NCBI GenBank assembly: GCA_963575745.1
Contig: CAUYUJ010000006.1
Location: forward strand, 1 to 64,000
DNA length: 64,000 bases
Direction of reading: 5' to 3'
Source: Prorocentrum cordatum
Taxonomy: Eukaryota
Shown here: piece by piece, positions 7,054 to 55,190 of the stretch
How the letters are laid out: every line of letters starts with the position of its first letter
How positions within the stretch are numbered: position 1 is the first letter of the stretch
Made by a program: the position numbers and the translations under genes
The notes under the pieces: model-generated
Told to the model about the DNA's origin: nothing
The model's input: only the letters and a program-made list of their open reading frames with translations
The model's database searches: none

Positions 7054-8476
7054 TTGGCCGACCCGGCCAGAACGGACAAAGTGATAACTTTTGGGTGGTT
7101 TTGCAATTTTTTCAAAGATATTTGACCATTTATTTTGAGAAAGCAGATTTTTACGCCGAGCATTGGAATATAAATTCCTCTCTGACCAAAGCTCAGCTCT
7201 CTCGATGCATTTTTGCACGAGCTGACTTCCGGGAACTGAGCGAATATGAACATCAAAAAAATCCAATTTGAAGATTTTCGAAAAATATTTATTTTTCCAC
7301 TCTGGGTCGATTCTCTTCACTCTTATCAGTGAAAAGAGCTCTACGAGGTTCCCGGCGGTGACTAGGTTGACGGTTCACCGCCGGCGCCAGTTGGCAAGAA
7401 AAATCTCGACGGACCTTTTGGTGACTTTTGGTCGGTTGATAATTTTGTTCTCGAAATTCAACAATTCGTTTGAGCTCTAGTATTTTTCTCTAGTATTTCT
7501 TTCCCATGATATTCGATTCTCATTCCCGCTCGCCATCTGATCCATCTCGGATCGGGTTAACTTTGAAGGCAAAAAGCAGGGGGGCAAAAGCAGGGGGACG
7601 GGAACGGCCGTTTGGCGGGAACGGCCGTTTCGAGTCATCTTGGTACGCGCTGTCGGTTTTCTCAAGATAACTCGAGCTTCAGGACACTACAGAGCTGGTC
7701 AGCACAGCTAATGCATTCAGAATGATCAGGCGCGTCCGCCTGTTGAATCCAGAGGTCTGAACTCGGTCTGCTAGCCGAGCTAGGGTCGCAAACCTATTCG
7801 TATTATTCGAGTCATTGTAGCAGACGCTCTCGGTTTTTTGTACTTAACTCGATCTATAGGGCAGCCACAGAGCTCATACTAACAGAAATCGATTGAGACT
7901 TATCAGGCGCGTTCGTCTGTTGCATCAAGAGCTCTGAAATCGGCCTTCTCTCCGAGCTAGGTTCGCGAAACCTATGGTAAATATAACTAATTTTTCGAGT
8001 ATCAATCTGGAGAAGTGCTCTTCGGTTCTTGCTGTAAACTGAATCGTCTGGGGGGGAGGGCCACAGTGGCTTGCTGGTCAAAGGAATCGATTTTCGAGAC
8101 ACCAGTGCGCGTCCGTTCGTTTCGGACCGAGAGCTCGGAACTCGGTCTGCTGCTCGAACGAGATTCCTGCGAAACTTGTTTGTATTTTATTTCGAGATCC
8201 CTAAAAGCTACCTCGGTTTCTGCAATTAACTCTCCCTTGGCTGTATGGGGGGCTGCAGAGCTGGTAATCACAGGAATCGATCCGCAGACATCAGACGCGT
8301 CCGCCTGTCGCATTCAGAGGTCTGAACTCGGTTTCATACTCGAGATCGATTGGAAAACTGTTCGTTTGTTTTGTTAGAGTCATCTTGAGAGGTCTATAAT
8401 CGCTTGGGCTGGAAAACTAGTCGTTCTCTGAAATTCTTTTCCACATTATATGTTGTCAGGAAGCTCTACGAGTCCC

Positions 8477-9712
8477 TCTGATAGGGCCTCTTCTTCTCGA
8501 GATGTTGAAGTTCCCTGTGAGCGGGGGGGGCCTAGGGATTCCCCCAGGCCCCCCCCGAAACGTCGGAGGGTGGCTGTTCCTGGACCTGGACAACAGACGG
8601 TGTATCCTCGTGCGCATCGTGACGCACGCCGGCTTCTGATGTGCTGTACCCCGAGGTGGGAGGAGAAAAGGACACTGGAGTCAAAATATTGGCGTTCACA
8701 GGGGAAGTGGAAGGAGGCCTCGAAACTGACACGATTAGGCAGTACTAAGGGGCAGGCGACGGGTGAACATCCTTGGTGTTTCATGTTCCAGACGATATTT
8801 CCCTCGTATGTGAATCTGGAGGATCGGTGGTGGAGGGCGTGCTCTTTCTCTTACTCTGACTTCGTTCAGTATTGCAGGCAGTTCCTGGAAGCTTGTACTT
8901 TGGGGTCTCTGTTTGACTTGTTTGTTGTCCGTGGAGGAACTGGAGGGAAAGGAGACTACATAAAGGAGAGGGGGGAGGAGATGTTGGCTCGTCCGTTGTC
9001 GGCGAAGGAGTCCGAGAAGCTGGCCCAGAGATTGGCCTCGAACAATGAACAGGAGCCGACTTGGGATCTGAGTGATGATGGGATCGGTCTCGAGCTGACG
9101 GGCGATTCGCTTCTTATCTTTAACTGGATCAATGGTCTCTGGAAGGTTGAGGGAGGAGAAGGAGGAGATGGGGCTTCTTATCGTAGGCGGGTGGCAAATA
9201 TTATTTCTCTTTTGGAAGAGTTGGAGGAGGACGGAATACGACCCCCCTCATGGGGCAACGACTTCATTCGACACATATATCGAGAGAGTAACACAGTAGC
9301 TGATGAACTTACCCACTTAGCACGGGAAGGCCAGATATTCAGAGAGCTGTTCCACCACCATATCTTTCGTTCTGATGTCCGAGACAACTTTCGAGTTATT
9401 GGCCTCCGCGGATCCTTCGACGGCGGAGTGTGCGCCCAAGGTGTGGGCGTTGGCTGGTTTCTGCAGATTGGATATATTCCTCGATTCCATGACCCTTACC
9501 CTGACCCTGAGCATAGAGATAAGAGAGCTCGTGTAGTCTCCCTCTTCCCCCAAGCCTCCTCTCCTTGTCCAATCATATGGGAAATAGTAGGGCGTTGTGC
9601 ACAGGCACTCCCCTCCCATAGCAGTATCACTGACGCTGAGCTTTCGGGTCTCGAGGGCCTCTTGCGGGCCGCAGCCCAGGTGGCCCAAGACCTCCAGCTG
9701 CAGAGAGACTAG
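8477..9712 (+). CDS. C-terminal fragment of a retrotransposon polyprotein with a circularly permuted RNase H-like domain
   Basis: Open frame with LELTGDSLLIFNW (9101), HIYRESNTVADELT (9272), GSFDGGV..GVGW (9416) and ITDAELSGL (9635). Collinear with the C-terminus of the 25466-27929 ORF. The listed start at 8450 lies in host sequence. Confidence 0.75.
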   Translation, partial: SDRASSSRDVEVPCERGGPRDSPRPPPKRRRVAVPGPGQQTVYPRAHRDARRLLMCCTPRWEEKRTLESKYWRSQGKWKEASKLTRLGSTKGQATGEHPWCFMFQTIFPSYVNLEDRWWRACSFSYSDFVQYCRQFLEACTLGSLFDLFVVRGGTGGKGDYIKERGEEMLARPLSAKESEKLAQRLASNNEQEPTWDLSDDGIGLELTGDSLLIFNWINGLWKVEGGEGGDGASYRRRVANIISLLEELEEDGIRPPSWGNDFIRHIYRESNTVADELTHLAREGQIFRELFHHHIFRSDVRDNFRVIGLRGSFDGGVCAQGVGVGWFLQIGYIPRFHDPYPDPEHRDKRARVVSLFPQASSPCPIIWEIVGRCAQALPSHSSITDAELSGLEGLLRAAAQVAQDLQLQRD

Positions 9713-9769
9713 GTAGGCACTTAACGGGCGCTGGGGCGCTCGGTGCCTGGTCAGCCTCCCCAAAAAAAA
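8477..9769 (+). mobile_element. 5'-truncated non-LTR retrotransposon inserted in the 3' hairpin of a family A element
   Basis: Interrupts GAGTCCC[CCGGCGGT]AACAAAGGTTGAC. Ends in a short stem-loop UTR and an A8 tract (9762-9769). The left hairpin arm is lost at the 5' junction, so there is no TSD. Confidence 0.8.
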
Positions 9770-9799
9770 CAAAGGTTGACGGCTACCGCCGGCGCCCAG

Positions 9800-12700
9800 T
9801 TGGCAAGAAAAATCTCGACGGACCTTTTGGTGACTTTTGTCGGTTGAAAATTTTTGTTCTCGAAATTTGACCATTCGTTAGAGCTCTAGTATTTTTCCCA
9901 TGATATTCGATCTTATTCCCGCTCGCCATCGTGATCTTCAGCTCGATTCGGGTAACTTTGAAGGCCAAAAAGCGCACGGCGGGAACGGCCGTTTCGAGTC
10001 ATCTTGATACGCGCTATCGGTATTTCGTACTTAACTCGAGCTGTAGGGCAGCTACAGAGCTGGTGAGCACAGCTATCGCACTCAGAATTATCGCGCGCGT
10101 TCGCCTGTTGAAACCAGAGGTCTGAACTCGGTCTGCCAGCCGAGCTAGGTTCGCAAACCTATTTGTATTATTCGAGTCATCTTGATAGACACTCTCGGTT
10201 TTCTGTACTTAACTCGAGCTTTAGGGCAGCTACAGTGCTTGTAAGCACAGCTATCGCTCTCAGAATCATCACGCGCGTTCGTCTGTTGAATCCAGAGGTC
10301 TGAACTCGTCTGCTAGCCGAGCTAGGTCCGCAAACTCATCAGTATTATTGGAGTGATCTTGATAAACGCTCTCGGTTTTCTGTACTTAACTCGAGCTGTA
10401 GGGCAGCTACAGGGCTCATTGTGACAGACATCGCTGGGGAATTATCAGTCGCGTTCGTCTATCGTACCGAGAGCTCTGAACTCGGCCTGCTGCCCGAGCT
10501 AGGTTCGCGAAGCTGTTCGTATTGTCCGAATGATCTTGAGACATGCTCTCAATTTTCTGCACTCAACTCGTGCTGGGGAAGGGCTACAGTGCTGCAGGTC
10601 GCATGTATCGATTTGCACACATCAGGCACGTCTTTCGGTCGATTCCAGAGCTCGGAACTCGGTCTGCTGCTCGAACTAGGTTCGCAAAACTATTATATTA
10701 TTCGAATCGATACTGTCGGTTTTCTGCACTTAACTCGGGCTGTAGGGGGGCTTCAGTGCTGGGAATCACATGAGTGGATTCGCAGACATCAGACGCGCCC
10801 GCCTGTCGCATTCAGAGGTCTCAACTCGGTTGATACTCGAACTGGGTTGCGAAACTGTTCGTTTTTTGTTAGCGTCATCTTGAGAGGTCTGAAATCGCTT
10901 GGGGCTTAAAAAATAGTCGTTCTTTCGAGTTTTTTTCCACAGTATATATTGTCAGGAAGCTCTACGAGTCTCCCGGCGGTAAGAAAGGTTGACGGTTTAC
11001 CGCCGGCGCCCAGTTAGCCGACCTGACGAAAAGAGACAAGTGATAACTTAACTCGTAGAGAAGCTCTACTTAGCAAGTTACTGCGGTGTTGAAGCCCAGT
11101 TGGCAAGAAAAAGACGGTAATGAAAATAACTCGTAGAGGAGCTGGAGAGCTAAGAGTTCCGGCGCGCTGGAGAGCTATTGGCAAGAAAAATCTCGACGGA
11201 CCTTTTGCTGACTTTTGGTCGGTTGAAAATTTGTTCTCGAAATTTGACCATTCGTTAGAGCTCTAGTATTTTTTCCCATGATATTCGATCTTATTCCCGC
11301 TCGCCATCTTGATCTCAGCTCGATCGGGTAACTTTGAAGGCCAAAAAGCGCACGGGCGGGAACGGCCGGTTCGAGTCATCTTGATACGCGCTATCGGTAT
11401 TTTGTACTTAACTCGAGCTGTAGGGCAGCTACAGAGCTGGTGAGCACAGCTATCGCACTCAGAATCATCAGGCGCGTTCGCCTGTTGAATCCAGAGGTCT
11501 GAACTCGGTCTGCCAGCCGAGCTAGGTTCGCAAACCTATTTGTATTATTCGAGTCATCTTGATAGACACTCTCGGTTTTCTGTACTTAACTCGAGCTTTG
11601 GGGCAGCTACAGTGCTTGTAAGCACAGCTATCGCACTCAGAATCATCACGCGCGTTCGTCTGTTGAATCCAGAGGTCTGAACTCGGCCTGCTAGCCGAGC
11701 TAGGTCCGCAAACCTATCAGTATTATTGGAGTGATCTTGATAGACGCTCTCGGTTTTCTGTACTTAACTCGAGCTGTAGGGCAGCTACAGGGCTCATTGT
11801 GACAGACATCGCTGGGGAATTATCAGTCGCGTTCGTCTATCGTACCGAGAGCTCTGAACTCGGCCTGCTGCCCGAGCTAGGTTCGCGAAACTGTTCGTAT
11901 TGTCCGAATGATCTTGTGACATGCTCTCAATTTTCCTGCACTCAACTCGTGCTGGGGAAGGGCTACAGTGCTGCAGGTCACATATATCGATTTGCACACA
12001 TCAGGCGCGTCTTTCGGTCGATTCCAGAGCTCGGAACTCGGTCTGCTGCTCGAACTAGGTTCGCAAAACTATTATATTATTCGAATCGATACTGTCGGTT
12101 TTCTGCACTTAACTCGGGCTGTAGGGGGGCTTCAGTGCTGGGAATCACATGGATTCGCAGACATCAGACGCGCCCGCCTGTCGCATTCAGAGGTCTCAAC
12201 TCGGTTTGATACTCGAACTGGGTTGCGAAACTGTTCGTTTTTTGTTAGCGTCATCTTGAGAGGTCTGAAATCGCTTGGGCTTAAAAAATAGTCGTTCTTT
12301 CGAGTTTTTTTCCACAGTATATATTGTCAGGAAGCTCTACGAGTCCCCCGGCGGTAAGAAAGGTTGACGGTTTACCGCCGGCGCCCAGTTTCGTTCTCGA
12401 AATTTGACCATTCGTTAGAGCTCTAGTATTTTTTCCCGTGATATTCGATCTTATTTCCGCTCGCCATCTTGATCTCAGCTCGATCGGGTAACTTTGAAGG
12501 CCAAAAAGCGCACGGGCGGGAACGGCCGGTTCGAGTCATCTTGATACGCGCTATCGGTATTTCGTACTTAAACTCGAGCTGTAGGGCAGCTACAGAGCTG
12601 GTGAGCACAGCTATCGCACTCAGAATTATCACGCGCGTTCGCCTGTTGAATCCAGAGGTCTGAACTCGGTCTGCCAGCCGAGCTAGGTTCGCAAACCTAT

Positions 12701-13551
12701 TTGTATTATTCGAGTCATCTTGATAGACACTCTCGGTTTTCTGTACTTAACTCGAGCTTTGGGGCAGCTACAGTGCTTGTAAGCACAGCTATCGCACTGA
12801 GAATCATCATGCGCGTTCGTCTGTTGAATCCAGAGGTCTGAACTCGGCCTGCTAGCCGAGCTAGGTCCGCAAACCTATCAGTATTATTGGAGTGATCTTG
12901 ATAGACGCTCTCGGTTTTCTGTACTTAACTCGAGCTGTAGGGCAGCTACAGGGCTCATTGTGAGAGACATCGCTGGGAATTATCAGTCGCGTTCGTCTAT
13001 CGTACCGAGAGCTCTGAACTCGGCCTGCTGCCCGAGCTAGGTTCACGAAACTGTTCGTATTGTCCGAATGATCTTGAGACATGCTCTCAATTTTCTGCAC
13101 TCAACTCGTGCTGGGGAAGGGCTACAGTGCTGCAGGTCACATATATCGATTTGCACACATCAGGCGCGTCTTTCGGTCGATTCCAGAGCTCGGAACTCGG
13201 TCTGCTGCTCGAACTAGGTTCGCAAAACTATTATATTATTCGAATCGATACTGTCGGTTTTCTGCACTTAACTCGGGCTGTAGGGGGGCTTCAGTGCTGG
13301 GAATCACATGAGTGGATTCGCAGACATCAGACGCGCCCGCCTGTCGCATTCAGAGGTCTGAACTCGGTTTGATACTCGAACTGGGTTGCAAAACTGTTCG
13401 TTTTTTGTTAGCGTCATCTTGAGAGGTCTGAAATCGCTTGGGCTTAAAAAATAGTCGTTCTTTCGAGTTTTTTCCCACAGTATATATTGTCAGGAAGCTC
13501 TACGAGTCTCCCGGCGGTAAGAAAGGTTGACGGTTTACCGCCGGCGCCCAG
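9800..13551 (+). repeat. Three near-identical family A copies in quasi-tandem (9800-11013, 11049-12388, 12389-13551)
   Basis: Shared private variants such as GACATGCTCTCAATTTTCTGCACTCAAC, TTCGAATCGATACTGTC and GGGGCTTCAGTGCTGGGAATCAC. Confidence 0.8.
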
Positions 13552-13676
13552 TCGTGCTGGGGAAGGGCTATAGCTCTGCTGGTCACAGGAATCGATTTCG
13601 AGACATCAGGCGCGTCCGTTCGTCGAACCGATCGCTCGAAACTCGGTCTGCTGCTCGAACGAAATCTGCGAAACTG

Positions 13677-15911
13677 TAACTCGTAGAGCTTCCCTTAGCT
13701 AGTTATAGCTGGAAGCTAAGAGTAATAACTCGTAGCGCTTTCCTTAGCAAGTTATTGCTGGAAGCTTAAGAGTAATTCCGGGGAGCTGGAGAGCTAGTTG
13801 GCAAGAAAAATCTCGACGGACTTTTTGCTGACTTTTGGTCGGTTGAAAATTTTGTTCTCAAAATTTGACCATTCGTTAGAGCTCTAGTATTTTTTCCCAT
13901 GGTATTCGATCTTATTCCCGCTCGCTATCTTGATCTCAGCTCGATCGGGTAACTTTGAAGGCCAAAAAGCAGGCAGGCGGGAACGGCCGTTTCGAGTCAT
14001 CTTGATACGCGCTGTCGGTTTTCTCAAGATAACTCGAGCTGGCGGACAACTACAGAGCTGGTCAGCACAGCTAATGCATTCAGAATGATCAGGCGCGTTC
14101 GTCTGTTGAATCCAGAGGTCTGAACTCGGTCTGCTAGTCGAGCTAGGGTCGCAAACCTATTCGTAGTATTCGGGTAATTGTAGCAGACGCTCTCGATTTT
14201 TTGTACTTAACTTGATCTGTAGGGCAGCCAGAGAGCTGATAATCACAGAAATCGATTGAGAATTATCAGGCACGTTCGTCTGTTCAATCAAGAGCTCTGA
14301 ACTCGGCCTGCTGCCCGAGCTAGTTTCGCGAACTTATTGGTATTGTTCGAGTCATCTTGAGAAGTGCTCTCGGTTTTCTGCACTTAAATCGTGCTGGGGA
14401 GGGCTAGAGTGCTGCTAGTCACAGAAATCGATTTCGAGACATCAGAAGCGTCCGTTCGTCGAACGGAGAGCTCGGAACTCGGTCTGCTGCTCGAACGAGA
14501 TCCGCGAAACTGTTGTATTATTCGAGTCATCCTGAGAGGTACTCTCGGTGTTCTGCACTTAACTCAGACTGTATGGGGGCTGCAGAGCTGGTAATCACAG
14601 GAATCGATCCGCAGACATCAGACGCGCCCGCTTGTCGCATTCAGAGGTCTGAACTCGGTTTCATATTCGAGCTCGATTGGAAAACTGTTTGTTTGTTTTG
14701 TTAGAGTCATCTAGAGAGGTCTATAATCGCTTGGGCTGAAACACTAGTCGTTTTCTGTTTTCTTTTCCACATTATATATTGTCAGGAAGCTCTACGAGTC
14801 CCCCGGCGGTAAGAAAGGTTGACGGTTTACCGCCGGCGCCCAGTTCCGGCGCGCTGGAGAGCTAGTTGGCAAGAAAAATCTCGACGGACCTTTTGCTGAC
14901 TTTTGGTCGGTTGAAAATTTCGTTCTCGAAATTCAACAATTCGTTTGTGCTCTAGTATTTTTTCCCATGATATTCGATCTTATTACCGCTCGCCATCTTG
15001 ATCTCAGCTCGATCGGGTAACTTTGAAGGCCAAAAAGCAGGCAGGCGGGAACGGCCGTTTCGAGTCATCTTGATACGCGCTGTCAGTTTTCTTAAGATAA
15101 CTCGAGCTTCAGGACAACTACAGAGCTGTGCAGCACAGCTAATGCATTCAGAATGATTAGGCGCGTTCGTCTGTTGAATCGAGAGGTCTGAACTCGGTCT
15201 GCTAGCCGAGCTAGGGTCGCAAACCTATTCGTATTATTCGAGTCATTGTAGCAGACGCTCTCGGTTTTTCGTACTTAACTCGATCTGTAGGGCAGCCACA
15301 GAGCTGATAATCACAGAAATCGATTGAGAATTATCAGGCGCGTTCGTCTGTTGAAGAAGAGCTCTGAACTCGGCCTGCTCCCCGAGCTAGGTTCGCGAAC
15401 CTATTGGTATTGTTCGAGTCATCTTGAGAAGTGCTCTCGGTTTTCTGTACTTAAATCGTGCTGGGGGAGGGCTACAGTGCTGCTGGTCACAGGAATCGAT
15501 TTCGAGACATCAGACGCGTCCGTTCGTCGAACTGAGAGCTCGGAACTCGGTCTGCTGCTCGAACGAGATCCGCGAAACTGTTGTATTATTCGAGTCATCC
15601 TCAGAGGTACTCTCGGTTTTCTGCACTTAACCCAGGCTGTATGGGGGCTGCAGAGCTCGTAATCACAGGAATCGATTTGCAGACATCAGACACGTCCGCC
15701 TGTCGCATTCAGAGGTCTGAACTCGGTTCATACTCGAGCTCGATTGGAAAACTGTTCGTTTGTTTTGTTAGAGTCATCTTGAGAGGTCTACAATCGCTTG
15801 GGCTGAAAAACTAGTCATTCTCTGAAATTCTTTCCCACATTATATATTGTCAGGAAGCTCTACGAGTCCCCCGGCGGTAAGAAAGGTTGACGGTTTACCG
15901 CCGGCGCCCAG
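13677..15911 (+). mobile_element. Family A element inserted in another A copy and itself containing A element 13726-14843
   Basis: Outer flanks GCGAAACTG | TTGTATTATTCG and inner flanks CTAAGAGTAA | TTCCGGCGCG both restore the consensus exactly. Confidence 0.9.
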
Positions 15912-16244
15912 TTGTATTATTCGAGTCATCCTGAGAGGTACTCTCGGTTTTCTGTACTTAACTCATACTGTATGGGCTGCAGAGCTGGTAATCACAGAAA
16001 TCGATCCGCAGACAGACATGAGACACATCCGCCTGTCGCATTCAGAGGTCTGAACTCGGTTTCATACTCGAGCTCGATTGGAAAACTGTTTGTTTGTTTT
16101 GTTAGAGTCATCTTTGGAGGTCATCATCGCTTGGGCTGAAAAAACTGGTCGTTCTCTGAAATTCGTTTCCACATATATATTGTCAGGAAGCTCTACGAGT
16201 CCCCCGGCGGTAAGAAAGGTTGACGGTTTACCGCCGGCGCCCAG

Positions 16245-17362
16245 TAACTCGTAGAGCTTCCCTTAGCTAGTTATAGCTGGAAGCTAAGAGTAATTCCGGC
16301 GCGTTGGAGAGCTAGTTGGCAAGAAAAATCTCGACGGACCTTTTGGTGACTTTTGGTCGGTTGAAAATTTTGTTCTCGAAATTTGACAATTCGTTAGAGC
16401 TCTAGTATTTTTTCCCGTGATATTCGATCTTATTCCCGCTCGCCATCTTGATCTCAGCTCGATCGGGTAACTTTGAAGGCCAAAAAGCACACGGGCGGGA
16501 ACGGCCGTTTCGAGTCATCTTGATACGCGCTGTCGGTTTTCTCAAGATAACTCGAGCTTCAGGGCAGCTACAGGGCTCGTCAGCACAGGTAATGCATTCA
16601 GAATGATCAGGCGCGTTCGCCTGTTCAATCCAGTGGTCTGAACTCGGTCTGCTAGCCGAGCTAGGGTCGAAAACTTAATCGTATTATTCGAGTCATTGTA
16701 ACAGACGCTCTCGGTTTTTCGTACTTAACTCGATCTGTAGGGCATCTACAGAGCTGATAATCACAGAAATCGATTGGGAACTATCAAGCGCATTCGTCTG
16801 TTAAATTAAGAGCTCTGAACTCATCCTGTTTCCCGAGCTAGGTTCGCGACCCTATTGGTATTGTTCGAGTCATCTTGAGAAGTGCCTTGGTTTTCTGTGC
16901 TTAAATCGTGCTGGGGAGGGCTACAGTGCTGCTGGTCACAGGAATCGATTTCGAGACATCAGGCGCGTCCGTTCGTCGAACCGAGAGCTCGGAACTCGGT
17001 CTGCTGCTCGAACGAGATTCGCGAAACTGTTGTATTATTCGAGTCATCATGAGAGATACTCTCGGTTTTCTGCACTGAACTTAAGCTGTATGGGAGGCTG
17101 CAGAGCTGGTAATCACAGGAATCGATCCGCAGACATCAGACGCGTTCGCCTGTCGCATTCAGAGGTCTGAACTCGGTTTCATACTCGAGCTCGATTGGAA
17201 AACTGTTCGTTTGTTTTGTTGGAGTCATCTTGAGAGGTCTATAATCGCTTGGGATGAAAAACTAGTCGTTCTCGGAAATTCTATTCCACAGTATATATTG
17301 TCAGGAAGCTCTACGAGTCCTCCGGCGGTAAGAAAGATTGACGGTTTACCGCCGGCGCCCAG
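16245..17362 (+). mobile_element. Intact family A element (1118 bp)
   Basis: Complete 5' inverted-repeat motif, body and 3' hairpin; abuts the previous element's CCAG end. Confidence 0.85.
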
Positions 17363-20615: not shown

Positions 20616-20726
20616 TAACTCGTAGAGCTTCCCTCAGCAAGTTATTGCTGGAAGCTTAAGAGTAATACCTCGTAGAGCTCTTCGGCATCGATGAGCTAGA
20701 GGAATTCGGGCGCGGGGTGCAGCTAG

Positions 20727-22099: not shown

Positions 22100-22135
22100 T
22101 TGGCCGACCCGGCCCCGACGAACAATGTGCGAATT

Positions 22136-33969: not shown

Positions 33970-34260
33970 TTTCCGGAGAGCTCGCTGAGAGCTAAAGGGT
34001 TTAAGATTAGAAGCCAGACGGTGGTGGTGCCCCAGGAGCTTTCCACGGCGGTCGACGTTCCCCGCAGCGCCCCCGGCGGCCCGGCAACTGGTCCGGGGGA
34101 GCTTCCGGCAAGCTTCCACGCGTGCCTGCATGCGTGCAGGCACGCATGGAAGTGTTTCTGGCAGCGATTCCGCAGCGCGCCAGGGGGTCACCCCTAGGCT
34201 TTCCAGGAAAGATTTCCCGTCCCCGAGATTCTCTTCGCTCCAGGTTTTGGACGCTACCAA
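33970..34260 (+). mobile_element. Family D element (relative of C)
   Basis: 5' TTCCGGAGAGC and tail TTTTGGACGCTACCAA. Related 3' ends GCTCTCCGGGGTTTCGACGCTACCAAGAGGACGCTACCAAG at 37489-37529 and at 31385-31422. Confidence 0.6.
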
Positions 34261-34555
34261 TGTCGCGTCTGCCGATAAATTCCAAGATCCTTAGCTGCAG
34301 TATTACTATCAAAACGCTTGGCGGAACCGTCGCTGGTAAGAACTAAAAAAACTTACCGTTTGAAGTATCCAGCTCGCGTATCAGAAAAGCTTCTGCCACG
34401 TGTTCTAAGCAGCGCCGTGCGAGGGAAGAGCTCTTCGAGGATCGCGGCGGTTTTCTGGTTGGCGGTTTAGCGCCGGCTCCCAGTTGTTGCTGGAAGCTTA
34501 AGAGTAATTCCGGGGCGCTGGAGAGCTAGTTGGCAAGAAAAATCTCGACGGACCA

Positions 34556-35371
34556 CACCTCGTAGAGCTCTTCGGCATCGATGAGCTAGAGCAATTCCGG
34601 CGCGGGGTGGAGCTAGTTGGTCGACCCGGCCAGAAAGGATAAAGTGAAACTTTTGGGTGGTTTTGCAATTTTTTGAAAGATATTTGACAATTCATTTTGA
34701 GAAAGCGGATTTTTCGCACCTGTAAACGACTATGAGGGCCTCTCTGTCTTAGTATGAGCTCCGTAGGCGCTTTTTTACTATCAAAACACTTGGAGCAACC
34801 ATCTTCATGTCGACACGAAAAAATCAATTTTCCCCTTTTCGAGATGCTCCCAGAAGATCTCTCTTTCGACTCGGAGCCTCTTACGCGTGAAAGGAGCTCT
34901 ACGAGGTTCCCGGCGGCGACCAGGTTGACGGTTCACCGCCGGCGCCAGTTTGATGACTTTTGGTTGGTTGAAAATTTTGTTCTCGAAATACCTCGTAGAG
35001 CTCTTCGTCATCGATGAGCTAGAGGAATTCCGGCGCGGGGTGGAGCTAGTTAGCCGACCCGGCCAGAAAGGACAATGTGACAACTTTTGGGTGGTTTTGC
35101 AATTTTTTGAAAGATATTTGACAATTTATTTCGAGAAAGCAGATTTTTCGCACCTGTAAACGACTATGAGCCTCTCTCTGTTAGTATGAGCTCTGTAGGC
35201 GCACTTTTACTATCAAAACACTTGGAGGAACCATCTTCATGTCGACACGAAAGACATCAATTTTGTCTTTTCCGAGAAATGCTTCCAGGAGCTCTCTCCT
35301 ACGTTACGCGTGAAATGAGCTCTACGAGGTTCCCGGCGGTGAGCAGGTTGACGATTCACCGCCGCCGCCAG
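34556..35371 (+). mobile_element. Two intact B elements (34556-34948, 34989-35371) inserted 40 bp apart in one A element
   Basis: Flanks of the second, TTCTCGAAA | TTCAACAATTCG, rejoin the A consensus exactly. Confidence 0.8.
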
Positions 35372-37619
35372 TTCAACAATTCGTTTCAGCGAGCTGGTGA
35401 GCACAGCTAATCGATTCAGAATGAACAGGCGCGTTTGCCTGTTCGACGCAGAGGGAACTCAGTCTGCTAGCCGAGCTAGAGCCGCAAACCTATTCGTATT
35501 ATTCGAGTTATCTTGACAGACGCTCTCGGTTTTCTCAAGATAACTCGAGCTTCAGCGCAGCGCAGTTAATCGATCCAGAATGATCAGGCACGTTCGCCTG
35601 TTGAATCTAGAGCTCTGAACTCGGTTTGCTGCCTGATCTGGAATCGCAAAACTATTCGTATTGTTCGAGTCATCTTGAGGATTCTGTCGGTTCTCTGCCG
35701 TTCACTCGGGCTGTGGGGGGCTGCATGGCTGGTAATCACTGGAATCGATTCGAAGACATCAGGTGCGTCCACCTTTCGAATCCAGATTTCCGAACTCTAT
35801 CTGCTGCCCGACCTAGGTCCGCGAAACTATTCATATTGTTCGAGTCATCCTGAGAGATGCTGTCGGTTGCTTAGCTCGGGCTGTAGGGGGGATGCATGGC
35901 TAAATCACAGGAATCGATTCGGAGACATCAGACGCGTTCGCCTGTCGCATGCAGAGGTCTGAGCTTGGTCTGATACTCGAGCTAGGTTTGCCAAACTATT
36001 CGTATTGTTTGAGTCATCTTGAGAGGTGCTGTCGATTTACGCACGTAACTCGGGCTGTAGGAGAGCTAGAGAGCTCGTACAGAAGACAATCCAGAAGCAT
36101 CGGCGGCGTTCGGCTGTTACATCGGAGAGGTCTGAGAATTCTTGGGCTGAAGCAGTATTTTTTCAGTGTATTTTTTCCAACATTACATGTTGTCAGGAAG
36201 CTCTACGAGTCCCCCGGCGGTAACGAAGGTTGACGGTTTACCGCCGGCGCCCAGTTCCGGGGCGCTGGAGAGCTAGTTGGCAAGAAAAATCTCGACGGAC
36301 CTTTTGCAGACTTTTGGTCGGTTGAAAATTTTGTTCTCGAAATTCAACAATTCGTTTGAGCTCTAGTATTTTTTCTGACCATATTCGATCTTATTCCCGC
36401 TCGCCATCTTAATCTTAGCTCGATCGGGTAAATATTTCTGCAAAAAAGCATCGCGGCGGGATCGGTTGTTTCGAGTCATCTTGATACGCGTTGTCAGTAT
36501 TTTGTACTTTACTCGAGCTGTAGGGCAGCTACAGAGCTCATTATCACAGCAATCGATTGCGAACCATCAGACGCATTCGTCTCTTTTATCTAGAGTCTGA
36601 ACTCGGTCTGCTGCCCGAGCTAGGTTCGCGAAACTATTCGTATTGTTCGAATCATCTTGAGAGGTGCTGATAATTTTCTGCACTTACCTCGGGCTGTAGG
36701 GGGGCTAGAGGGCTCGTACTCACAGGAATCGATTCCGAGACATCAAGCGCCTCCGCCTGGCGAATCCAGAGCTCAGAACTCGGTGTGTTGCCCGAGCTAG
36801 GTTCGCAAACTATTCGTATTTGTCGAGTCATCTTGAGATGTGCTGTCCGTTTTCTGCACTTAACTCGAGCTGTAAGGGGGTTGCAGGGCTGGTACTCACT
36901 GGAATCGATTCGGAGACATCAGTCGCGTCTATATGTCGCATTTAGAGCCCTGCACTCAGCCTGCTGCCCGAGCTAGGTCCGCGAAACTATTCGTATTGTT
37001 CGAGTGATCTTCAGATGTGCTGCCGATTTCCTGCACTTAACTCGGGCTGTAAGGGGGCCGCAGGGCTGGTAATCACAGGGATTGATTCGGAGACATCAGA
37101 CGCGTCCGCCTGTCGCATGCAGAGGTCTGAACCATACTATTCGTTTCCTTCGAGTCATCTTGGGAGGTGCTGTCGATTTTCGCACGTAACTCGGGCTGTA
37201 GAGGAGCTACGGAGCTCGTGTGCACAGAAAACGATGAGAAGCATGAGGGGCGTTTGGCTGTTGCGTTGAGAGGCCTGAATCGTTTAGGCTGAAAAATATT
37301 CGTTCTCTGCATTTTTTTCGACATCATATATGCTCAGGAAGCTCTACGAGTCTCCCGGCGGTAACCAAGGTTGACGGTTTACCGCCGGCGTCCAGTCGGA
37401 GGCCCCGCCAGGAATGCTTTCTGGCGTGTGTTTCCTTTGCTCTCCGGACTTTGGACGCCAGGAAGGCTTTTCAGTGCGTGTCCTCTTTGCTCTCCGGGGT
37501 TTCGACGCTACCAAGAGGACGCTACCAAGTCATCTTGAGAGGTGCTTCGGTTTTGCACTTAACTCGGGCTGTAGCTCCGCGGAGCAGGGCTCCGCCGAGC
37601 TCGGCGCCGCAGACCCGCG

Positions 37620-39830: not shown

Positions 39831-39844
39831 TACCAAACATCCTA

Positions 39845-42800
39845 AATACTTCAGAATGGCGCTCCTGATGATTTCCTTCCGGTTGCTGTGCCGAGGCGAA
39901 GAGCTCTTTAGCTCATATATGGCTCGAGTTAAGTTAAGAAAACCAGCACCTCTTCAAACATTAGCAGAGTATGAGTAGTTGTTCTGTCTCAGCTCTGGTA
40001 GCAGACCGATCTCAGCCATGTAGATGCTTCAGATTTAGCGCGCACTATGATTTCCGTCCGGTTACTGTGCCGAACAGCTGTAGGTCATCCACCGCTCGCG
40101 TTAAGTCAATAAAACCGACAGCACCTGCCAAGATAACACTTAGCGCCCGATCCCACCCACATGCTTTTTAATAGTAATATTCACCCGATCGACCTGAGAT
40201 TGAGATGTCGAGCGGAAATAAGATCGAATATGGGCAGAAAAACATTAGAAGTCTAACCAATGACTTGTAGAGCGCCCCTAAAAGCGAAGCGGCGAAGCTG
40301 GAAAGCGAAGCGGCGAAGCGGCAAAAGCTTGACGGAGGTTTGGTTTATTTTCATCAGTTTTTGAAACTCAGCAATTCGCTAGAGCTCTAATTTTTTCTAG
40401 CCATCTTCGGTCATTCTGGCTTTCCATCTTGATCTCAGGTCGATCTGGTAGATATTACTATAAAAGCACTCAGGCGGGATTGGCTGTTGAGTGTAATCCT
40501 GGCAGGTGCTGTCGGTTTTTCTCACTTAGCTGGAGCTGCAGATGAGCTGCAGAGCTCTTCGGCACAGCAATCGAAAGGGCATCATCAGGAACGTTATTTT
40601 TCATTATCTAGATGTCCGAATTCGGTCTGCTACCAGAGCTGGGGCCAATGACTCTTTGCGCACTCTGCTAATTTCTCGAAGAGATGATGATGATTGCCTA
40701 ACCCAACTCGAGCTGCAGATGAGCTACAGTGCTGCCCGGCACAGAAACCGCAAGATAATCCTTAGGAGCGCTAGTCTCACGTATCTAGATGCCCGAACTC
40801 GGTCTGCTGCCAGAGCTGGTCCTGCTAATTATTTCAGAGAAAATGCTAATTCTCTTAGCTTGAATCGAGCTGCGAATGAGCTACATAGCTGTTCGGCTCA
40901 GCAATGGGAAGAAAGTCATCAGGGGCGCTAGTATCAAGTATCCAGATGCCTGAACTCGGTCTGCTTTTAGAGCTGGAACCAAAAACTATTCGCTCTCTGC
41001 TTATTGTTGTAAAAGATCATCATCGTTTTCTTTTTTTTTATTCGGGCTCTTACTCCTCCACGCACTCTTCTCTTTCACGTCCTCTTCCATATAACCGCAC
41101 CTCGTGTGCACGAAATTCGAGACTGCTCTCGCATGCGATTCATGTATACCGCAAGAAAGCTGTGCGAGTTCCGGGCGGTAACCAAGGTTGATGGCGGTGC
41201 TTGACATTCTACTCAAGTGGTGCTCAACGGTTGATGGAACAACGCTTGCAGAGCCACATTCGGAACCTTTGTGTAACCTTTTGGCCTTAACTGTGGCCTT
41301 AACTGGCGCCTGGCGCTGTTCAAGACTTCAACTTTAACTTTCACTCTGCTTCGCCTGTGATATACAACGTAAACATGAACTAGTCGGCCTCCACGGTTTC
41401 TTCGTTGGATGGCGGTCTGTGGAAGCATATGCTGCTGATCGGCTGTTGCTTTGATCAATGCAGTAAAACGGCATTGTATGGCCGTGGAACACGTTTTGGG
41501 TAGCGTTTCAACCAGCTCTTACACCATTCTCTAACCTGTTCCAACACCTTTGCATTCTCACATGTTGTGTTGCATCCTTTTCCTTGTACCTGCATCCTAT
41601 TCCGATGCCTATGCCTCAGTGGCTCGGCAGTGTAATCATAAGAGGTGCCTTCTCTAGCTACCCTGTGCTCCGTTTGGGAGTCTTAGGGCTCAGCTGTCAC
41701 AGCTGTCCGCGCCCTGACTCAAACTCAAAAACCAAGGTTGACGGTTTACCGCCGGCTCCCAGTTGTTGTATTTCGAGAAATTGATTTTTTACCGACCGAA
41801 ATGATGCAAAACATCCGTCGGGATTTTTCGGTCCAACTAGCCCGCCAGCGCGCCAGAACTGGACAACGGCGGTAAACCGTCAACCTTGGTTACGGCCGGG
41901 AACTCGTTGAGCTTCCTTGCGATGCGAATGAATGGTATGCAAACGCGGCAATCTTGCATTCCGCTCGCGTGAGGGTGCAGTTTTATAGAAATGTGTTTCG
42001 CAGCTCCTTGCTTGTCCAGAGCTCGAGTTCGTCTCGATGCTGCAGACTAGCGCTGGTGATCATTCCCATTCGAACAGTCTGCTACCGAGCGCTGTAGCTT
42101 CCCTACAGCTCGAATGAAGTAGAGGAAACCGACACTGCATATCTAGAGTTTGAACAGCGCAAATAGTTTTTGAGTTGCAGTTCTGGTAGCAGACCGATCC
42201 GCCGTCTAAATGCTTGCAACTAGCGCTTTTTCAGCATTTCCTGTCGAGTGGTGTATACCTGAGCTCCGTGTCTAGCCTACAGCTCGAATCGAACACAGAA
42301 AACACATAATCTCTCGCCAAACAATTGCAGAGTGCAAGTAGCTGTTCAGTTGTAGCTTGGTAGCAGACCAATTCCAGACGTCTCGATACTGTAGGCGACT
42401 GTTTCTGATGATGTCCTGTTAAGCGGTGTGCTTCCCAGCTCCCTACCTTGCCTATAACTCGAACTGAATCAGAAGTATTACGCCGTCTCCAAACAAATGA
42501 AAGGTTGCAAAACATATTTGATTGAAGTTCCGGTGGCAGACCGATCTCAGGCGTCTAGATACTTTGCGCAGGTGCTTCTTGGCATTCTCTGTCGATTAGG
42601 TTGCATCTCAGCTTCGTGGCTGGCCTACATCTCGAATTCAATTGGGGCACATCATCTCTCGTAACATCTTTCCAGTGCGAACAGTTTTTCACTTGCAGCT
42701 GCGATTGCAGGCCGAATTCAGACGTCTCGATACCCCAGGCGAGTGTGCTTGATGATTTTCTGTTTCGACAAGTGCTTCTCAGCTCCATAGCCAGCCTACA

Positions 42801-44098
42801 GCTCGAATGAAGTAGAGAAAACCCACATCATTTCTTAAGTAATTAGCGGAGTACGAATAGTTGCTTGGTCCCGGCTCTGGTAGCAGACCGATCTCAGACA
42901 TCTAGACACTTGAGACTAGCGCTCCTGATGAGTCCCGTTCGATTGCTGTGCCGAGCAGCTCTGTACCTCATCTACAGCTCGAGTTCAGTTAAGAAAATTG
43001 ATATCACCTGCCAAGAGGACACAAAACAGTCGATCCCGCCTGATTGCTTTTTTTGATCGTAATATCCACCCGATCGACCTAGTATCAAGATTTCGAGCGA
43101 AAATGAGATTCAATCAAGATGGGGGAAAAGAGTAGAGCTCTGACGAATTGTTGAATTTCGAGAAGCTGATTTTGAATAGTCCACAACATGATTGGAAACC
43201 GGCGGTAAACTGTCAACCAGGTTGCCGCCGGGACCCTCGTAGAGCTCTTGAGACCGCCAAGTAGTGCTCATAATGCGACCAGAAAGCTTACTTCAATATC
43301 AGCTTACAAACTCGAAAAAGCTATTCATGTTATTCCTAGTGTTTTGATAATAATACTACAGATACGGGCCTGGGACTTGACGGGCCGACGCGCCATTACC
43401 TACTATAGGTGCAGACAATAGCTTGCGTTCTGCGAAAGTTAAACGCGTAAAACCATGATCATCTGGAATAGAGCATCCCTACGGCCGACGGTTTCTCCGC
43501 GTCTCTCGACAGTAATATTGCAGCTACGGACCAGAGAATTTCACAGACAGACGCCACTTAACGCTCCACTTTGCACAAATCCGGGTTTCCAAAACCAACT
43601 GTCAAATCTCTCATAATCTTCAAAATGCGACCCCAGGTTGACACGTTGTCCGCCGGGGCCGTGTGGGCGAACTAGCTCCACCCGCCGCCGGAATTCATTT
43701 AGCCTCATCGATGCCGAAAAGCTCTACGAGGCACCTACTAGTCATTAGCTTTGCCGCTTCGCTCTTAGGGGAGCTCTACGCGTCATTGCTCTCTAGCTTT
43801 GCGGCTTCGCTCGTAGGGGAGCTCTACGAGTAAATCTTTAAGAAATCAACCCCAGGTTGACGCATTGTCCGTCAAGGCTGGGTGGGCGAAATAGCTCCAC
43901 CCCGCGCCAGAATTCTTTTAGCTCATCGATGCCGAAGTGCTCTACAAGGTACTATCAAGTCACTTGGACCAACTTTGTATGAGACCGAGAAAGTCAATTT
44001 TCGAGTCTTCGAGCTGGTGTTGAAGTAAGCTTTCTCGTCGTATTCTCAGACTTAGCGTGTCAGGAGCTCGACGAGGGTCCCGGCGGTAACCTGGTTGA
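39845..44098. mobile_element. Older, diverged A/B-like elements in both orientations
   Basis: Reverse 3' ends at about 41860-41915 and 43200-43247. Reverse B 5' ends at about 43733 and 43951. Forward A-like body at 40261-41191. Variant 5' motif TGACTTGTAGAGC...GCGAAGCGGC at 40261, with reverse copies at 43750-43832. Confidence 0.65.
41192..41729 (+). mobile_element. 538-bp retro-insertion in the 3' hairpin loop of an A-like element, 12-bp TSD
   Basis: AACCAAGGTTGA at 41180-41191 and 41730-41741. 3' stem-loop followed by CTCAAACTCAAA. Confidence 0.8.
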
Positions 44099-45667
44099 GC
44101 AGAGTTTACCTCCTGCTCAGCCAGGCCTCACCGCTGGGGCCCCCCCTCGTCTCGAGCTGCATTGCGCAGTATGGTGTCTTTGGTTCCTCATGCTCTACAC
44201 GGTGCTCTCACTATGAGAGGCGACGGCGGCGCCGCGATGGCTGCTTCTCTCGTGGAGGCAGCGGTCCGCGCTGCTGTTCAGGCAGGTGCCCCGCGCAGGA
44301 CAGTCGCAGCCGCCGCGGCTGCCGTGGCCTCGGTCATGGTGGCGACGCGGTGTGGCGTTGGTCCGGCGCAGGGCGCCCCTGATTCCGCTTCCGCCGGATC
44401 GGCCGGATCCCGGCGGCAGCGGAGGAGGCTGAAGAAGAAAACTATGATGTGCAGATCGGGGCAGGATGCTGTCCTTGGGGAGCCTGTTGGGCAGACCCTA
44501 AGGCTCAGGATTTTGATCATGAGATATCTTGTTATCACAGGTCCAGTGTTCACCATGGGGCTTTTGATTTTCATGTTGGGAGCTCTTTATGTAGGCGAGT
44601 CCAGTTTGATGATCGGTCTTCAGTGGTTTCTTATGAGATACCCTTTCAAGCGAGGCTGAGTCCCATATCGAGGAGGCTGAAGAAGAAAACTATGAGCTGC
44701 AGGTCGGGGCAGGATGCTGTCCTTGGGGGGCCTGTAGGGCAGACCCTAAAGACTCAGGGTGTTGATCATGAGGTATCGCACGTGGGTTCGCGCGTTCTTG
44801 CTCCTGCCCAGACGGCAGCTGATGTGAATATGTCGGAGGTGGAGAAGGATAACGAGGATCACATGTCTGTTGTTTTTGCTCCTGTTAAGACGGCAGCTGA
44901 TGTCAAGATGTCGGAGGTGGAGAAAGATAACGAGGATGTGGTGAATCGCGGAGGAGGAAGCTCATTGGACTCAGTGGATATATTTGCGGAGTTGGGAAAG
45001 ATGCAGCAGATGGTGTCCACGAGCGTCTCTTCAGCGGCACGCGATGCGGCGTAGGGCGCTCGCAAAGATATTAAAGCAGACATTCAACATTGAGTTTTTC
45101 ATAACTGATAATTGATAATTCATTGCATGAGGTCTTACTTTTTTTGCCTCGAGTGGATTGCAGAACTCATTGTGTATCTTTGAATGCATGCAAGTTCGAG
45201 GATGACAAGATAACGTTTCAACATTGAGTCATTGATAACTGATAAGTGGTAATGCATTCCATGAGGTCTTACTTTTCTCCGGCTCGAGTGGAGTGCAGAA
45301 TTCATTTTGTATCCTGAGAAGACTCGTTTGGAGTGCCGTACTTCCTTTTTGTATCCGCATGTCTCAGCCACCCTGGCTCGGCAATCTCGGTACTACTGCT
45401 CACTTTTCGGCCTCGTTTGGAGTGCTTGACGTTGCGTGACTGCGTGGCGGGGCCCCTGTTAGTGGGGCCGCAGGCGTTCGAATCCGACGTGCCTAAGCCA
45501 CGCTGGCTCGGCACGTGTCATTCTACATGCCTCCAAGAAGGTCCTCGCCCGCGTCCTTGTTTTGTACTCTTGTACAGCTCAACGAGTGTCGCAGTTTTTC
45601 TTGGCTTCTTGTGAGCCCGCTCGCTGCCCGATGAGGACCTGATTAGCGAGGCCGCAAACCGCAAAAA
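44099..45667 (+). mobile_element. 1.57-kb non-autonomous retro-insertion in the 3' hairpin loop, 11-bp TSD
   Basis: AACCTGGTTGA at 44088-44098 and 45668-45678. Tail CGCAAACCGCAAAAA. Contains an Ala/Arg-rich ORF-like start (MAASLVEAAVRAAVQAGAPRRTVAAAAAAVAS) and no RT motifs. Confidence 0.75.
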
Positions 45668-46485
45668 AACCTGGTTGACGGTTGAGGTCGCGTCCAAACG
45701 ACCCTTCGAGAGAGTTGTTAGTTCGGTAGTTCGGACACGAACTGAATCCAGTATTGGGGCGCAGCCCAGAACTCTGGACTGAACAAATCTTCCGTGCGTT
45801 GTTAGTTCGAGATTTCGGGGCCGAACCCACATGCCTCGTGGAGCTCTTCCGCATCGATGAGCCAGAGGAATTCCGGCGCGGGGTGGAGCTAGTTGGCCCA
45901 CCCGGCCTGGGCGGACAATTTGTCAATCTGGGGTCGGTTTACCTCGTGGAGCTTTTCGGCGTCGATGAGTTAGAGGAATTCCGGCGCCGGGACGCGAGTA
46001 GCTCGTAGAGCTCTTCGGCATCGATGAGCTAGAGGAACTCTGGCGCAGGGTGGAGCTAGTTGGCCCACCCGGCTCGGACGGACAATGTGGGAACCTTGGA
46101 TTGTTTTTTTTTCGGGAGATCGTGAGAGATTTGACAATTCTTTTTGTGGGCCCCGATTTTATTCCCTATACGCGATCATGGCACGTTTCGTGGTAAATTC
46201 TTAGGGCTGTAGCTTCAGTGCAGCTCTCGACAATTCGGGGGGACCATCGGCCGTCATAATGTTTTTTGTAGATGATAGTTATTTCGTGAACATAACTGAA
46301 GAAGTTACCGCCGGGACCATCGTAGAGTTCTCAACGCGCAATACGTGTTCATTTTATGAGAAGTTCCTCGAAACTCAGCTTAATAACTCGCTTTTTTTCC
46401 CAACCATCCTGTGGTGTTGGGTCCTCGTTTTGAAGAAACGGTCCCCGCGTTCCTTCTTCCTCCTTCTCCTCGCCCTCCTCCCTCC

Positions 46486-55156: not shown

Positions 55157-55190
<34 letters not shown>

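What the first reader, a model, noticed from the sequence alone, without database searches (positions are those of the whole stretch)
8461..45678. Retroelements that home to the 3' terminal hairpin of Helitron2-like elements
Seen: three dissimilar inserts (8477-9769, 41192-41729, 44099-45667) all end, in the same orientation, immediately before AACAAAGGTTGA, AACCAAGGTTGA or AACCTGGTTGA at the start of the hairpin loop. Two have 11-12 bp TSDs covering exactly that motif. A fourth insert lies in the equivalent 3' tail of family C. These termini are a small fraction of the repeat DNA. Established precedent: Tx1L LINEs target DNA transposons. Inference: a site-specific LINE group parasitises the cis end of a rolling-circle transposon. 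A TSD regenerates the loop and right arm but displaces the left arm, which could disable the host. Priming from the host's HUH nick is a speculative alternative.
Basis: partly seen in the sequence, partly recalled or inferred. Interest (0 to 1): 0.88.

Follow-up and report, generated by a model that had tools for sequence, protein, structure and literature searches.

The report
Retroelements aimed at a transposon's hairpin
Three unrelated retroelement pieces sit at exactly the same nucleotide of the terminal hairpin of rolling-circle transposon relics, which points to a jumping gene that aims at another jumping gene's essential end.

Summary
The core observation holds. Three mutually unrelated inserts (8477-9767, 41192-41729, 44099-45667) end, in one orientation, with A-rich tails at the same bond (T|AAC) of the 3' palindrome of Helitron2/Helentron-like non-autonomous elements. 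Two have exact 12- and 11-bp target duplications with identical borders. The third has an 8-nt target deletion. Chance is about 1e-6 after correction, and one ancestral insertion is excluded.

Insert 1 is the 5'-truncated tail of a LINE. A full-length relative (P0173) has an AP-endonuclease-like domain, a reverse transcriptase and the same C-terminal domain. That domain looks like a circularly permuted RNase H.

The best reading is a target-specific APE-type LINE group with non-autonomous passengers that nicks the conserved palindrome.

Not verified:
- A fourth retroelement in the window (25457-27986) is not in a palindrome.
- 112 distinct related palindromes in marine metagenomes carry no such insert, and also no LINE.

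Corrections:
- The bond lies in the predicted stem, not the loop.
- Priming from an HUH nick is disfavoured.

The parts
1..37396 (+). Head-to-tail array of Helitron2/Helentron-like non-autonomous elements (about 1.2-kb units, many 5'-truncated), each with 176-178-bp central repeats
   Evidence: Self-blastn; TRF periods 176-178; 39 intact 3' palindromes in the window
36199..36256 (+). Example of an intact target: 3' subterminal inverted repeat AGCTCTACGAG, palindrome CCGGCGGTAA...TTACCGCCGG, loop holding AAC-GGTTGA, 3' end ...CCCAGT
   Evidence: ssDNA fold -12.4 kcal/mol
8462..8476 (+). Host 3' subterminal repeat left of insert 1; the left arm CCGGCGGT is deleted
8477..9767 (+). Insert 1: 5'-truncated LINE (3' 1.29 kb of ORF2 with RNase H-like C-terminal domain, 3' UTR stem-loop, A6 tail)
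   Evidence: P0001 is 31% identical to P0002 residues 701-894 and 45% identical over 95% of its length to the 1455-aa P0173
9768..9811 (+). Rest of the host palindrome after insert 1 (AACAAAGGTTGA, right arm, 3' end)
41158..41191 (+). Host subterminal repeat, left arm and first copy of the 12-bp target duplication (41180-41191)
41192..41729 (+). Insert 2: 538-bp non-coding retroposon, tail CAAACTCAAA, no terminal inverted repeats
41730..41765 (+). Second copy of the 12-bp duplication, right arm and host 3' end
44065..44098 (+). Host subterminal repeat, left arm and first copy of the 11-bp duplication (44088-44098)
44099..45667 (+). Insert 3: 1569-bp retroposon with a frameshifted ORF of a multicopy protein family, tail CCGCAAAAA
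45668..45683 (+). Second copy of the 11-bp duplication plus CGGTT; host sequence stops here
25457..27986 (+). Fourth retroelement (LINE2): 5'-truncated LINE with RT and RNase H-like domain, tail CCCAACAA, flanked by TGGACGCTTACAA (25444-25456, 27987-27999); not in a palindrome
   Evidence: RVT_1 4.4e-13; alignment to P0004 from residue 98 to 423; junctions
30021..30069 (+). Host 3' end that lost exactly the left arm, up to the same T|AAC bond, without any insert
45684..48271 (.). Composite 2.6-kb block flanked by TGACGGTT (45676, 48272) inside the same palindrome as insert 3; possible further insertion, unresolved

Best explanation
A group of APE-type LINEs, with non-autonomous retroposons that ride on them, integrates by target-primed reverse transcription at one defined site. 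That site is the conserved 3' terminal palindrome of Helitron2/Helentron-like rolling-circle elements.

Proposed steps:
1. The element-encoded endonuclease nicks the bottom strand at 5'-...CC(W)GGTT|ACCGCCGG-3', which is T|AAC on the top strand.
2. The exposed ...GGTT-3' end pairs with the A-rich RNA tail and primes cDNA synthesis.
3. The top strand is cut after GGTTGA, 11-12 bp downstream. This duplicates AAC..GGTTGA.

The insertion leaves the left arm 0.5-1.5 kb from the loop and right arm, so that copy can no longer form its terminal hairpin.

Shown: the junctions, duplications, orientation and independence of three events; the LINE nature of insert 1; and an AP-endonuclease fold and RT in relatives.

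Inferred: that the endonuclease reads this sequence; that inserts 2 and 3 are mobilised by such a LINE; that the host copy is disabled; and that the preference holds genome-wide.
For: - Three non-homologous inserts sit at the same bond in the same orientation. Corrected chance is 1.7e-6.
- Both cut positions are identical in the two events with duplications, although the loops differ in length (12 vs 11 bp).
- All tails are A-rich and no terminal inverted repeats are present.
- Insert 1 is 45% identical over 95% of its ORF to P0173 (1455 aa). P0173 has RVT_1 at 1.1e-7. Its N-terminus matches the clade's N-terminal profile at 97.3% probability, E 2e-11.
- That profile's model (mean pLDDT 66.6) hits AP endonucleases and the R1 and TRAS1 LINE endonucleases at E 7e-11 to 1e-8.
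- Motifs SWNxNR, LQEV, SDH are conserved.
- The clade is large: 151 cluster representatives at E<=1e-30.
- Only AAC-type loops are occupied: 3 of 13 against 0 of 29 (Fisher p 0.025).
- The target is the most conserved part of the host. 105 of 112 distinct metagenomic contexts keep the left arm, and 94 keep AACCA, AACCT or ACCAA.
Against: - Only three events in one window support the claim, and no genome-wide count was possible.
- A fourth retroelement of the same superfamily lies outside any palindrome.
- The three inserts belong to three different sequence families. Either three lineages share one specificity, or mobilisation happens in trans, which was not shown.
- No window copy keeps its endonuclease domain.
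- Pfam endonuclease hits in relatives are all below the curated cut-offs.
- None of the 112 distinct metagenomic palindrome contexts (136 sites) shows a tail junction at T|AAC. Those 168 kb also hold no LINE of this clade, so this says little either way.
- AAC-type copies may simply be older than the recently amplified AAG and GAC types. That would confound the loop-type contrast.
Confidence: 0.6

Rival explanations
1. Structural hot spot. LINEs of loose sequence preference (a T|A step) nick or prime preferentially where the palindrome distorts DNA or forms a hairpin during replication. Unrelated families therefore converge on it without a dedicated sequence-reading endonuclease.
For: Three different insert families share the site, yet another LINE of the superfamily does not. 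The site is a 10-bp-stem palindrome. Structure selectivity of the L1 endonuclease is in print (PMC1950540, seen only as title and abstract in the listing).
Against: The same bond, the same orientation and the same second cut recur in palindromes whose arms are nearly symmetric. 29 palindromes with AAG or GAC loops and equal stems are empty, although age may confound this.
Confidence: 0.2
2. Borrowed nick. The rolling-circle element's own enzymes (the HUH Rep, or the AP-like endonuclease that Helentrons carry) nick the palindrome, and LINE reverse transcriptases exploit that 3' OH.
For: Helentrons encode an endonuclease of unknown role (PMC4067079, passages). The palindrome is presumably bound by the transposase.
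Against: The primer nick is on the bottom strand about 30 nt inside the element, not at a terminus. Precise 11-12-bp staggered cuts are typical of LINE endonucleases. The LINE lineage keeps its own endonuclease domain with catalytic motifs. No Rep/helicase gene is in the window or in the fetched loci.
Confidence: 0.08
3. The inserts are not retroelement integrations. They would be DNA-transposon insertions, capture events of the rolling-circle element, or local rearrangements that happen to share a fragile point.
For: Inserts 2 and 3 have no RT and only short C/A-rich tails. A left-arm deletion without insert (30021) and a block flanked by TGACGGTT (45684-48271) show that the palindrome also breaks in other ways.
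Against: There are no terminal inverted repeats. Exact duplications lie on both sides of otherwise intact host ends. Orientation and tail position equal those of insert 1, which is unmistakably a LINE. Helitron capture adds sequence beyond the 3' end and makes no duplication (established knowledge, recalled).
Confidence: 0.07

Closest known systems
Tx1L and other Tx1-clade LINEs (Tx1L inside the DNA transposon Tx1D of Xenopus)
   Same: An APE-type LINE that integrates at one defined site of another, multicopy transposon. Kojima and Jurka 2015 list transposons among LINE targets and name the Tx1 and R1 clades as the APE-type target-specific groups (PMC4640811, passages). The Tx1L/Tx1D details are recalled.
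   Different: The target here is the cis-acting terminal palindrome of a rolling-circle (Helitron2/Helentron-like) element, not a cut-and-paste transposon. The LINE clade carries a C-terminal RNase H-like domain with permuted motif order. Clade membership by RT phylogeny was not tested.
R1, TRAS and SART (site-specific APE-type LINEs of insects)
   Same: Precise first and second cuts, fixed orientation, and a multicopy conserved target. The endonuclease model's structural matches include R1Bm EN (6a42, 2ei9) and TRAS1 EN (1wdu).
   Different: Those target rDNA or telomeric repeats. The structural matches are no better than matches to cellular AP endonucleases, so they show the fold and not kinship.
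R2, Utopia and other restriction-like-endonuclease LINEs
   Same: Target-specific integration into conserved multicopy sequence as a 'safe haven' strategy (PMC4640811, passages).
   Different: They use a different endonuclease type. No PD-(D/E)xK domain was seen here.
HINE / DINE-1 / Helitron2 non-autonomous elements (the host)
   Same: Subterminal inverted repeats, a 3' stem-loop a few nt from the end, palindromes at both ends, central tandem repeats, head-to-tail arrays (PMC4067079, passages).
   Different: No Rep/helicase partner was seen. The base after the 3' end is often but not always T, so TT targeting is not established.

Membership tests
Target-site-specific APE-type non-LTR retrotransposon | AP-endonuclease-like domain N-terminal to the reverse transcriptase | tested here: met
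   Met in relatives only. The P0011 model matches AP endonucleases at E 7e-11. The P0173 N-terminus matches the clade profile at 97.3%. Pfam hits are all below the cut-offs. The window copies are 5'-truncated and lack the domain.
Target-site-specific APE-type non-LTR retrotransposon | Reverse transcriptase of LINE type | tested here: met
   RVT_1 at 4.4e-13 in 25200-27929 and 1.1e-7 in P0173. The best PDB sequence matches are R2 and L1 ORF2p. Inserts 1-3 themselves hold no RT.
Target-site-specific APE-type non-LTR retrotransposon | Hallmarks of target-primed reverse transcription: A-rich 3' tail at the junction, target duplication, 5' truncation | tested here: met
   Tails in 3 of 3 inserts; exact duplications in 2 of 3, with an 8-nt target deletion in the third; insert 1 is truncated.
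Target-site-specific APE-type non-LTR retrotransposon | Most genomic copies lie at the same target sequence in one orientation | tested here: inconclusive
   3 of 4 retroelement insertions in the window, and 3 of 3 in the same orientation.
Tx1 clade | Placement within the clade by RT phylogeny | not tested
   No reference LINE sequences were available from the tools.
Helitron2 / Helentron-derived non-autonomous element (HINE) | Subterminal inverted repeats (5' near the end, 3' about 38-60 nt from the end) | tested here: met
   5' (A)CCTCGTAGAGCT is the exact complement of 3' AGCTCTACGAGGT, which lies 43-50 nt from the 3' end. The criterion comes from PMC4067079.
Helitron2 / Helentron-derived non-autonomous element (HINE) | Palindrome or stem-loop close to the 3' end (and at the 5' end in Helitron2) | tested here: met
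   The 3' stem of 10 bp ends 7-9 nt before the terminus. The 5' heads of two families fold alike with different sequence.
Helitron2 / Helentron-derived non-autonomous element (HINE) | Central tandem repeats | tested here: met
   Periods of 176-178 bp, 2-4.4 copies per unit.
Helitron2 / Helentron-derived non-autonomous element (HINE) | Insertion into TT without target duplication | tested here: inconclusive
   5' heads are nearly always preceded by T. The base after ...CAGT is T, A or C. No empty sites were available.
Helitron2 / Helentron-derived non-autonomous element (HINE) | Autonomous partner with Rep/helicase sharing the termini | tested here: inconclusive
   None among 53 window ORFs or 33 ORFs of the metagenome loci. 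The genome was not searchable.
RNase H type 1 domain (C-terminus of the LINE) | Catalytic D-E-D-D residues in an RNase H fold | tested here: inconclusive
   The motifs are present in the order DS, N..AD, DGG, E, and are invariant in 12 sequences. Pfam RVT_3 matches only profile positions 55-123, on the first half. The model has pLDDT 84.5, but sequential aligners give only Z 3.3-3.4 to RNase HI over the first half.

The most novel reading that the evidence does not exclude
A whole LINE clade of marine protists, marked by a circularly permuted RNase H, includes lineages that are dedicated hyperparasites of Helitron2/Helentron-type transposons. Their endonuclease reads the transposase-recognition palindrome, which is conserved across many host families and species. 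Each insertion severs the left arm and so inactivates that copy. The LINE thereby gains a renewable safe haven and acts as a brake on rolling-circle transposition.
Probability: 0.3. Interest if true: 0.8.

Novelty: new variant of a known kind. Interest (0 to 1): 0.62.

Why it matters
Target-specific LINEs are known for rDNA, telomeres, small RNA genes, microsatellites and one cut-and-paste transposon.

A lineage aimed at the terminal palindrome of rolling-circle transposons would be a new target class. It would also be a clear case of one mobile element exploiting, and probably disabling, the cis-acting end of another.

It would give a new sequence-specific AP-type endonuclease with defined cuts on both strands. 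Such enzymes are of interest for RNA-templated site-specific insertion.

It also marks which part of the little-studied Helitron2/Helentron terminus is most conserved.

Tried and rejected
- **Whole genome:** not held.
- **Earlier findings of the scan:** nothing for this genome, the host DNA, the LINE protein or the topic. Two notes on HINEs in other genomes did not bear on the question.
- **LINE relatives in viral contigs and genome contigs:** none.
- **The palindrome in genome contigs:** 3 loci from prokaryote MAG records, not examined further. In viral contigs: 0.
- **LINE proteins and the inserts against the 121 metagenome loci:** no LINE and no insert copy.
- **One ancestral insertion:** rejected, because the inserts are not homologous.
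- **Retrocopies of spliced-leader mRNAs:** no DinoSL relic with up to 3 mismatches anywhere in the window (the motif is from PMC6050394).
- **SINE heads:** no Rfam family and no tRNA.
- **N-terminus of P0004 against PDB sequences:** 0 hits. The profile A3 gave only E 0.019. The fold search settled it.
- **RNase H fold by Foldseek and VIA-align:** no clear match, as expected if the domain is permuted. Pfam found nothing on the second halves.
not found among 17 family C heads.
- **Literature:** no paper on a LINE aimed at Helitron or Helentron termini, and none on a permuted RNase H in non-LTR elements. These searches cover open-access full text only. No supplements were read.


Full report
**The sequence.** The window (64 kb, 54% G+C, no N) begins with a 37-kb head-to-tail array of about 1.2-kb repeat units. 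Older, nested copies follow up to about 49 kb.

Each unit ends with ...AGCTCTACGAG-N-CCGGCGGT-AAC/AAG/GAC..GGTTGACGGTT(T/C)-ACCGCCGG-N7-9(...CAGT). Full-length units begin with (A)CCTCGTAGAGCT, the exact complement of the 3' subterminal AGCTCTACGAGGT.

As single strands, the 3' end folds into a 10-bp stem, CCGGCGGTAA/TTACCGCCGG. The 5' heads of two families fold alike although their sequences differ. The bodies hold 176-178-bp tandem repeats.

These are the features that Thomas et al. give for Helentron-associated elements and for Helitron2: subterminal inverted repeats, a 3' stem-loop near the end, palindromes at both ends and central repeats (PMC4067079, passages). No Rep/helicase gene was found among the 53 window ORFs scanned. 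The assignment is therefore structural.

**The observation.** The window holds 39 intact 3' palindromes: 10 with an AAC-type loop, 12 AAG, 16 GAC-type and 1 other. Three are interrupted, one has lost exactly its left arm (30021), and one is an orphan right half (48273).

The three interrupted copies carry the following inserts:
- Insert 1 (8477-9767) has an A-rich tail abutting AACAAAGGTTGA. The 8 nt of the left arm are deleted.
- Insert 2 (41192-41729) is flanked by an exact 12-bp AACCAAGGTTGA.
- Insert 3 (44099-45667) is flanked by an exact 11-bp AACCTGGTTGA.

In all three the tail meets the same bond, T|AAC, and the insert has the same orientation relative to the host. In the two with duplications, the second border (after GGTTGA) is also the same.

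The inserts are single-copy in the window and unrelated to one another. The only link is one 48-nt box shared by inserts 2 and 3. Descent from one ancestral insertion is therefore excluded.

Three of four insertions hitting one bond of about 45 palindromes in 64 kb has a probability of 1.4e-9. Allowing any position of the unit gives 1.7e-6.

The right arm is missing after insert 3. There a 2.6-kb composite block (45684-48271) is flanked by TGACGGTT and ends at the orphan right half. It may be a further insertion into the same palindrome, but this is unresolved.

**What the inserts are.** The ORF of insert 1 (P0001) is 31% identical to the C-terminal 200 residues of the RT-bearing ORF at 25200-27929 (P0002). 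It is 45% identical over 95% of its length to P0173, a 1455-residue protein from a metagenome.

P0173 has an RT. Its N-terminal domain matches the N-terminal profile of the clade (hhalign 97.3%, E 2e-11).

That profile's predicted structure (mean pLDDT 66.6, best in residues 1-135) matches AP endonucleases, including the R1 and TRAS1 LINE endonucleases, at E 7e-11 to 1e-8. The motifs SWNxNR, LQEV and SDH are conserved. Pfam endonuclease hits exist in 4 of 12 relatives scanned, but all lie below the curated cut-offs.

The clade is sizeable: 151 cluster representatives at E<=1e-30, and 2548 at E<=0.001. Insert 1 is thus the 5'-truncated 3' end of an APE-type LINE.

Inserts 2 and 3 have no RT, no terminal inverted repeats, no Rfam or tRNA-like part and no spliced-leader relic. 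They end in C/A-rich tails, as both LINEs do. All four tails are preceded by a G+C-rich two-tier stem-loop. This is suggestive but not tested further.

Insert 3 carries a frameshifted ORF. Its 5 database homologues (up to 83% identity over 49% of the query) are unnamed proteins that their sources assign to two dinoflagellates and to a prasinophyte transcriptome. It therefore belongs to a multicopy family.

**A counter-example.** The RT-bearing LINE (25457-27986) is also 5'-truncated; it aligns to the full-length P0004 only from residue 423. It is flanked by TGGACGCTTACAA on both sides. It lies in another repeat, not in a palindrome. The superfamily as a whole is therefore not bound to this target.

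**Related sequences elsewhere.** The contig names I could read were marine assemblies.

Of 112 distinct contexts, 105 keep the left arm. Their loops read AACCA (72), AACCT (12) or ACCAA (10), although the search fixed only the right half. Flanking sequence is otherwise diverse and includes ordinary genes.

The palindrome with its AAC loop is thus the conserved core of many families. This is what one expects of a transposase-recognition site, and what a target-specific element would exploit.

None of these sites has a tail junction at T|AAC. The same 168 kb also contain no LINE of this clade. This result neither supports nor refutes the specificity.

**Mechanism.** The simplest account is target-primed reverse transcription by an element-encoded AP-type endonuclease with defined cuts on both strands. 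The bottom strand is cut at ...GGTT|ACCGCC. The top strand is cut after GGTTGA, 11-12 bp away.

The loop-type contrast (3 of 13 AAC against 0 of 29 others, p 0.025) fits sequence reading. The AAC copies may simply be older, however.

A structural hot spot remains possible. Priming from a nick made by the rolling-circle enzyme fits poorly, because that enzyme cuts the top strand at the termini, whereas the primer nick here is on the bottom strand about 30 nt inside.

That the insertion disables the host copy is an inference from the separation of the two arms.

**Comparison and novelty.** This works like the target-specific APE-type LINEs: the Tx1 and R1 clades, whose targets include transposons (PMC4640811, passages). 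Membership in either clade was not tested.

My searches found no report of a LINE aimed at Helitron-type termini.

I rate it a new variant of a known kind. The evidence is strong for a shared integration site. It is only moderate for a dedicated, genome-wide specificity, which needs the counts named under next steps.

Noticed in passing
window 27330-27926 and 9062-9709; proteins P0003, P0004, P0173: The C-terminal domain of this LINE clade carries the RNase H motifs in permuted order: GDS, then N..AD.LA, then FDGG, then AEL. D, D and E are invariant in 12 sequences. Pfam RVT_3 matches only its own positions 55-123, on the first half. A confident model (pLDDT 84.5) finds no sequential structural match. 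This looks like a circularly permuted RNase H, and I found no report of one in non-LTR elements.
   Followed up: partly
window 30021-30069: One host copy lacks exactly the left arm (CCCGGCGG) up to the T|AAC bond and has no insert. It may be a scar of an aborted or lost integration, or an independent deletion.
   Followed up: no
window 45684-48271: A composite block lies inside the palindrome that also holds insert 3. It is flanked by the 8-bp direct repeat TGACGGTT and ends at an orphan right arm. It contains three 5' heads, a 90-bp x 18 minisatellite and unique DNA.
   Followed up: partly
window 22133-23504, 28121-28322, about 33960-34250; locus L116: Another repeat ('A+B' unit, 373-bp period) starts TTCCCGGATAGC, ends GCTATCCGGGTTT and has its own long hairpin GCCGGCGGTGGGTGG...CCCACCTCCGCCGG. 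It sits inside family C elements. The same arrangement is 88-93% identical in a marine metagenome contig.
   Followed up: partly
loci L001-L121: The 3' palindrome with subterminal GCTCTACGAG is conserved in more than 100 metagenome contigs (those whose names I could read were marine) of otherwise unrelated sequence. It is often beside ordinary genes (pyruvate kinase, PAPS reductase, pantoate ligase) and sometimes head-to-tail with a next 5' head.
   Followed up: partly
loci L076 (about 1330-1400 on the reverse strand) and L113: An A-rich tail (AAAAAAAATAAAATAAAAAAAA) abuts GTCCACCCGGCGG directly and replaces the subterminal repeat. This may be a retroposon insertion 16 nt upstream of the site studied here, or a family-specific structure. 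Both loci are copies of one family.
   Followed up: no
window 46485-48114, 50463-50691, 61090-61297: A 90-bp minisatellite (15+3 copies, 96-97% matches) has diverged relatives at two further places. The long ORF across it gave a spurious mucin-like Pfam hit.
   Followed up: no
window 49000-64000: This G+C-rich stretch has many overlapping ORFs on both strands. None of the 37 ORFs scanned there matched a Pfam family above its curated cut-off. It includes a (GAT)n-like array of 245 units at 61393-62125.
   Followed up: no
window 44162-45054: The ORF of insert 3 has an internal 108-bp duplication and a frameshift. Intact relatives (P0174, P0175) are annotated as unnamed proteins in public dinoflagellate assemblies, several per contig.
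   Followed up: partly
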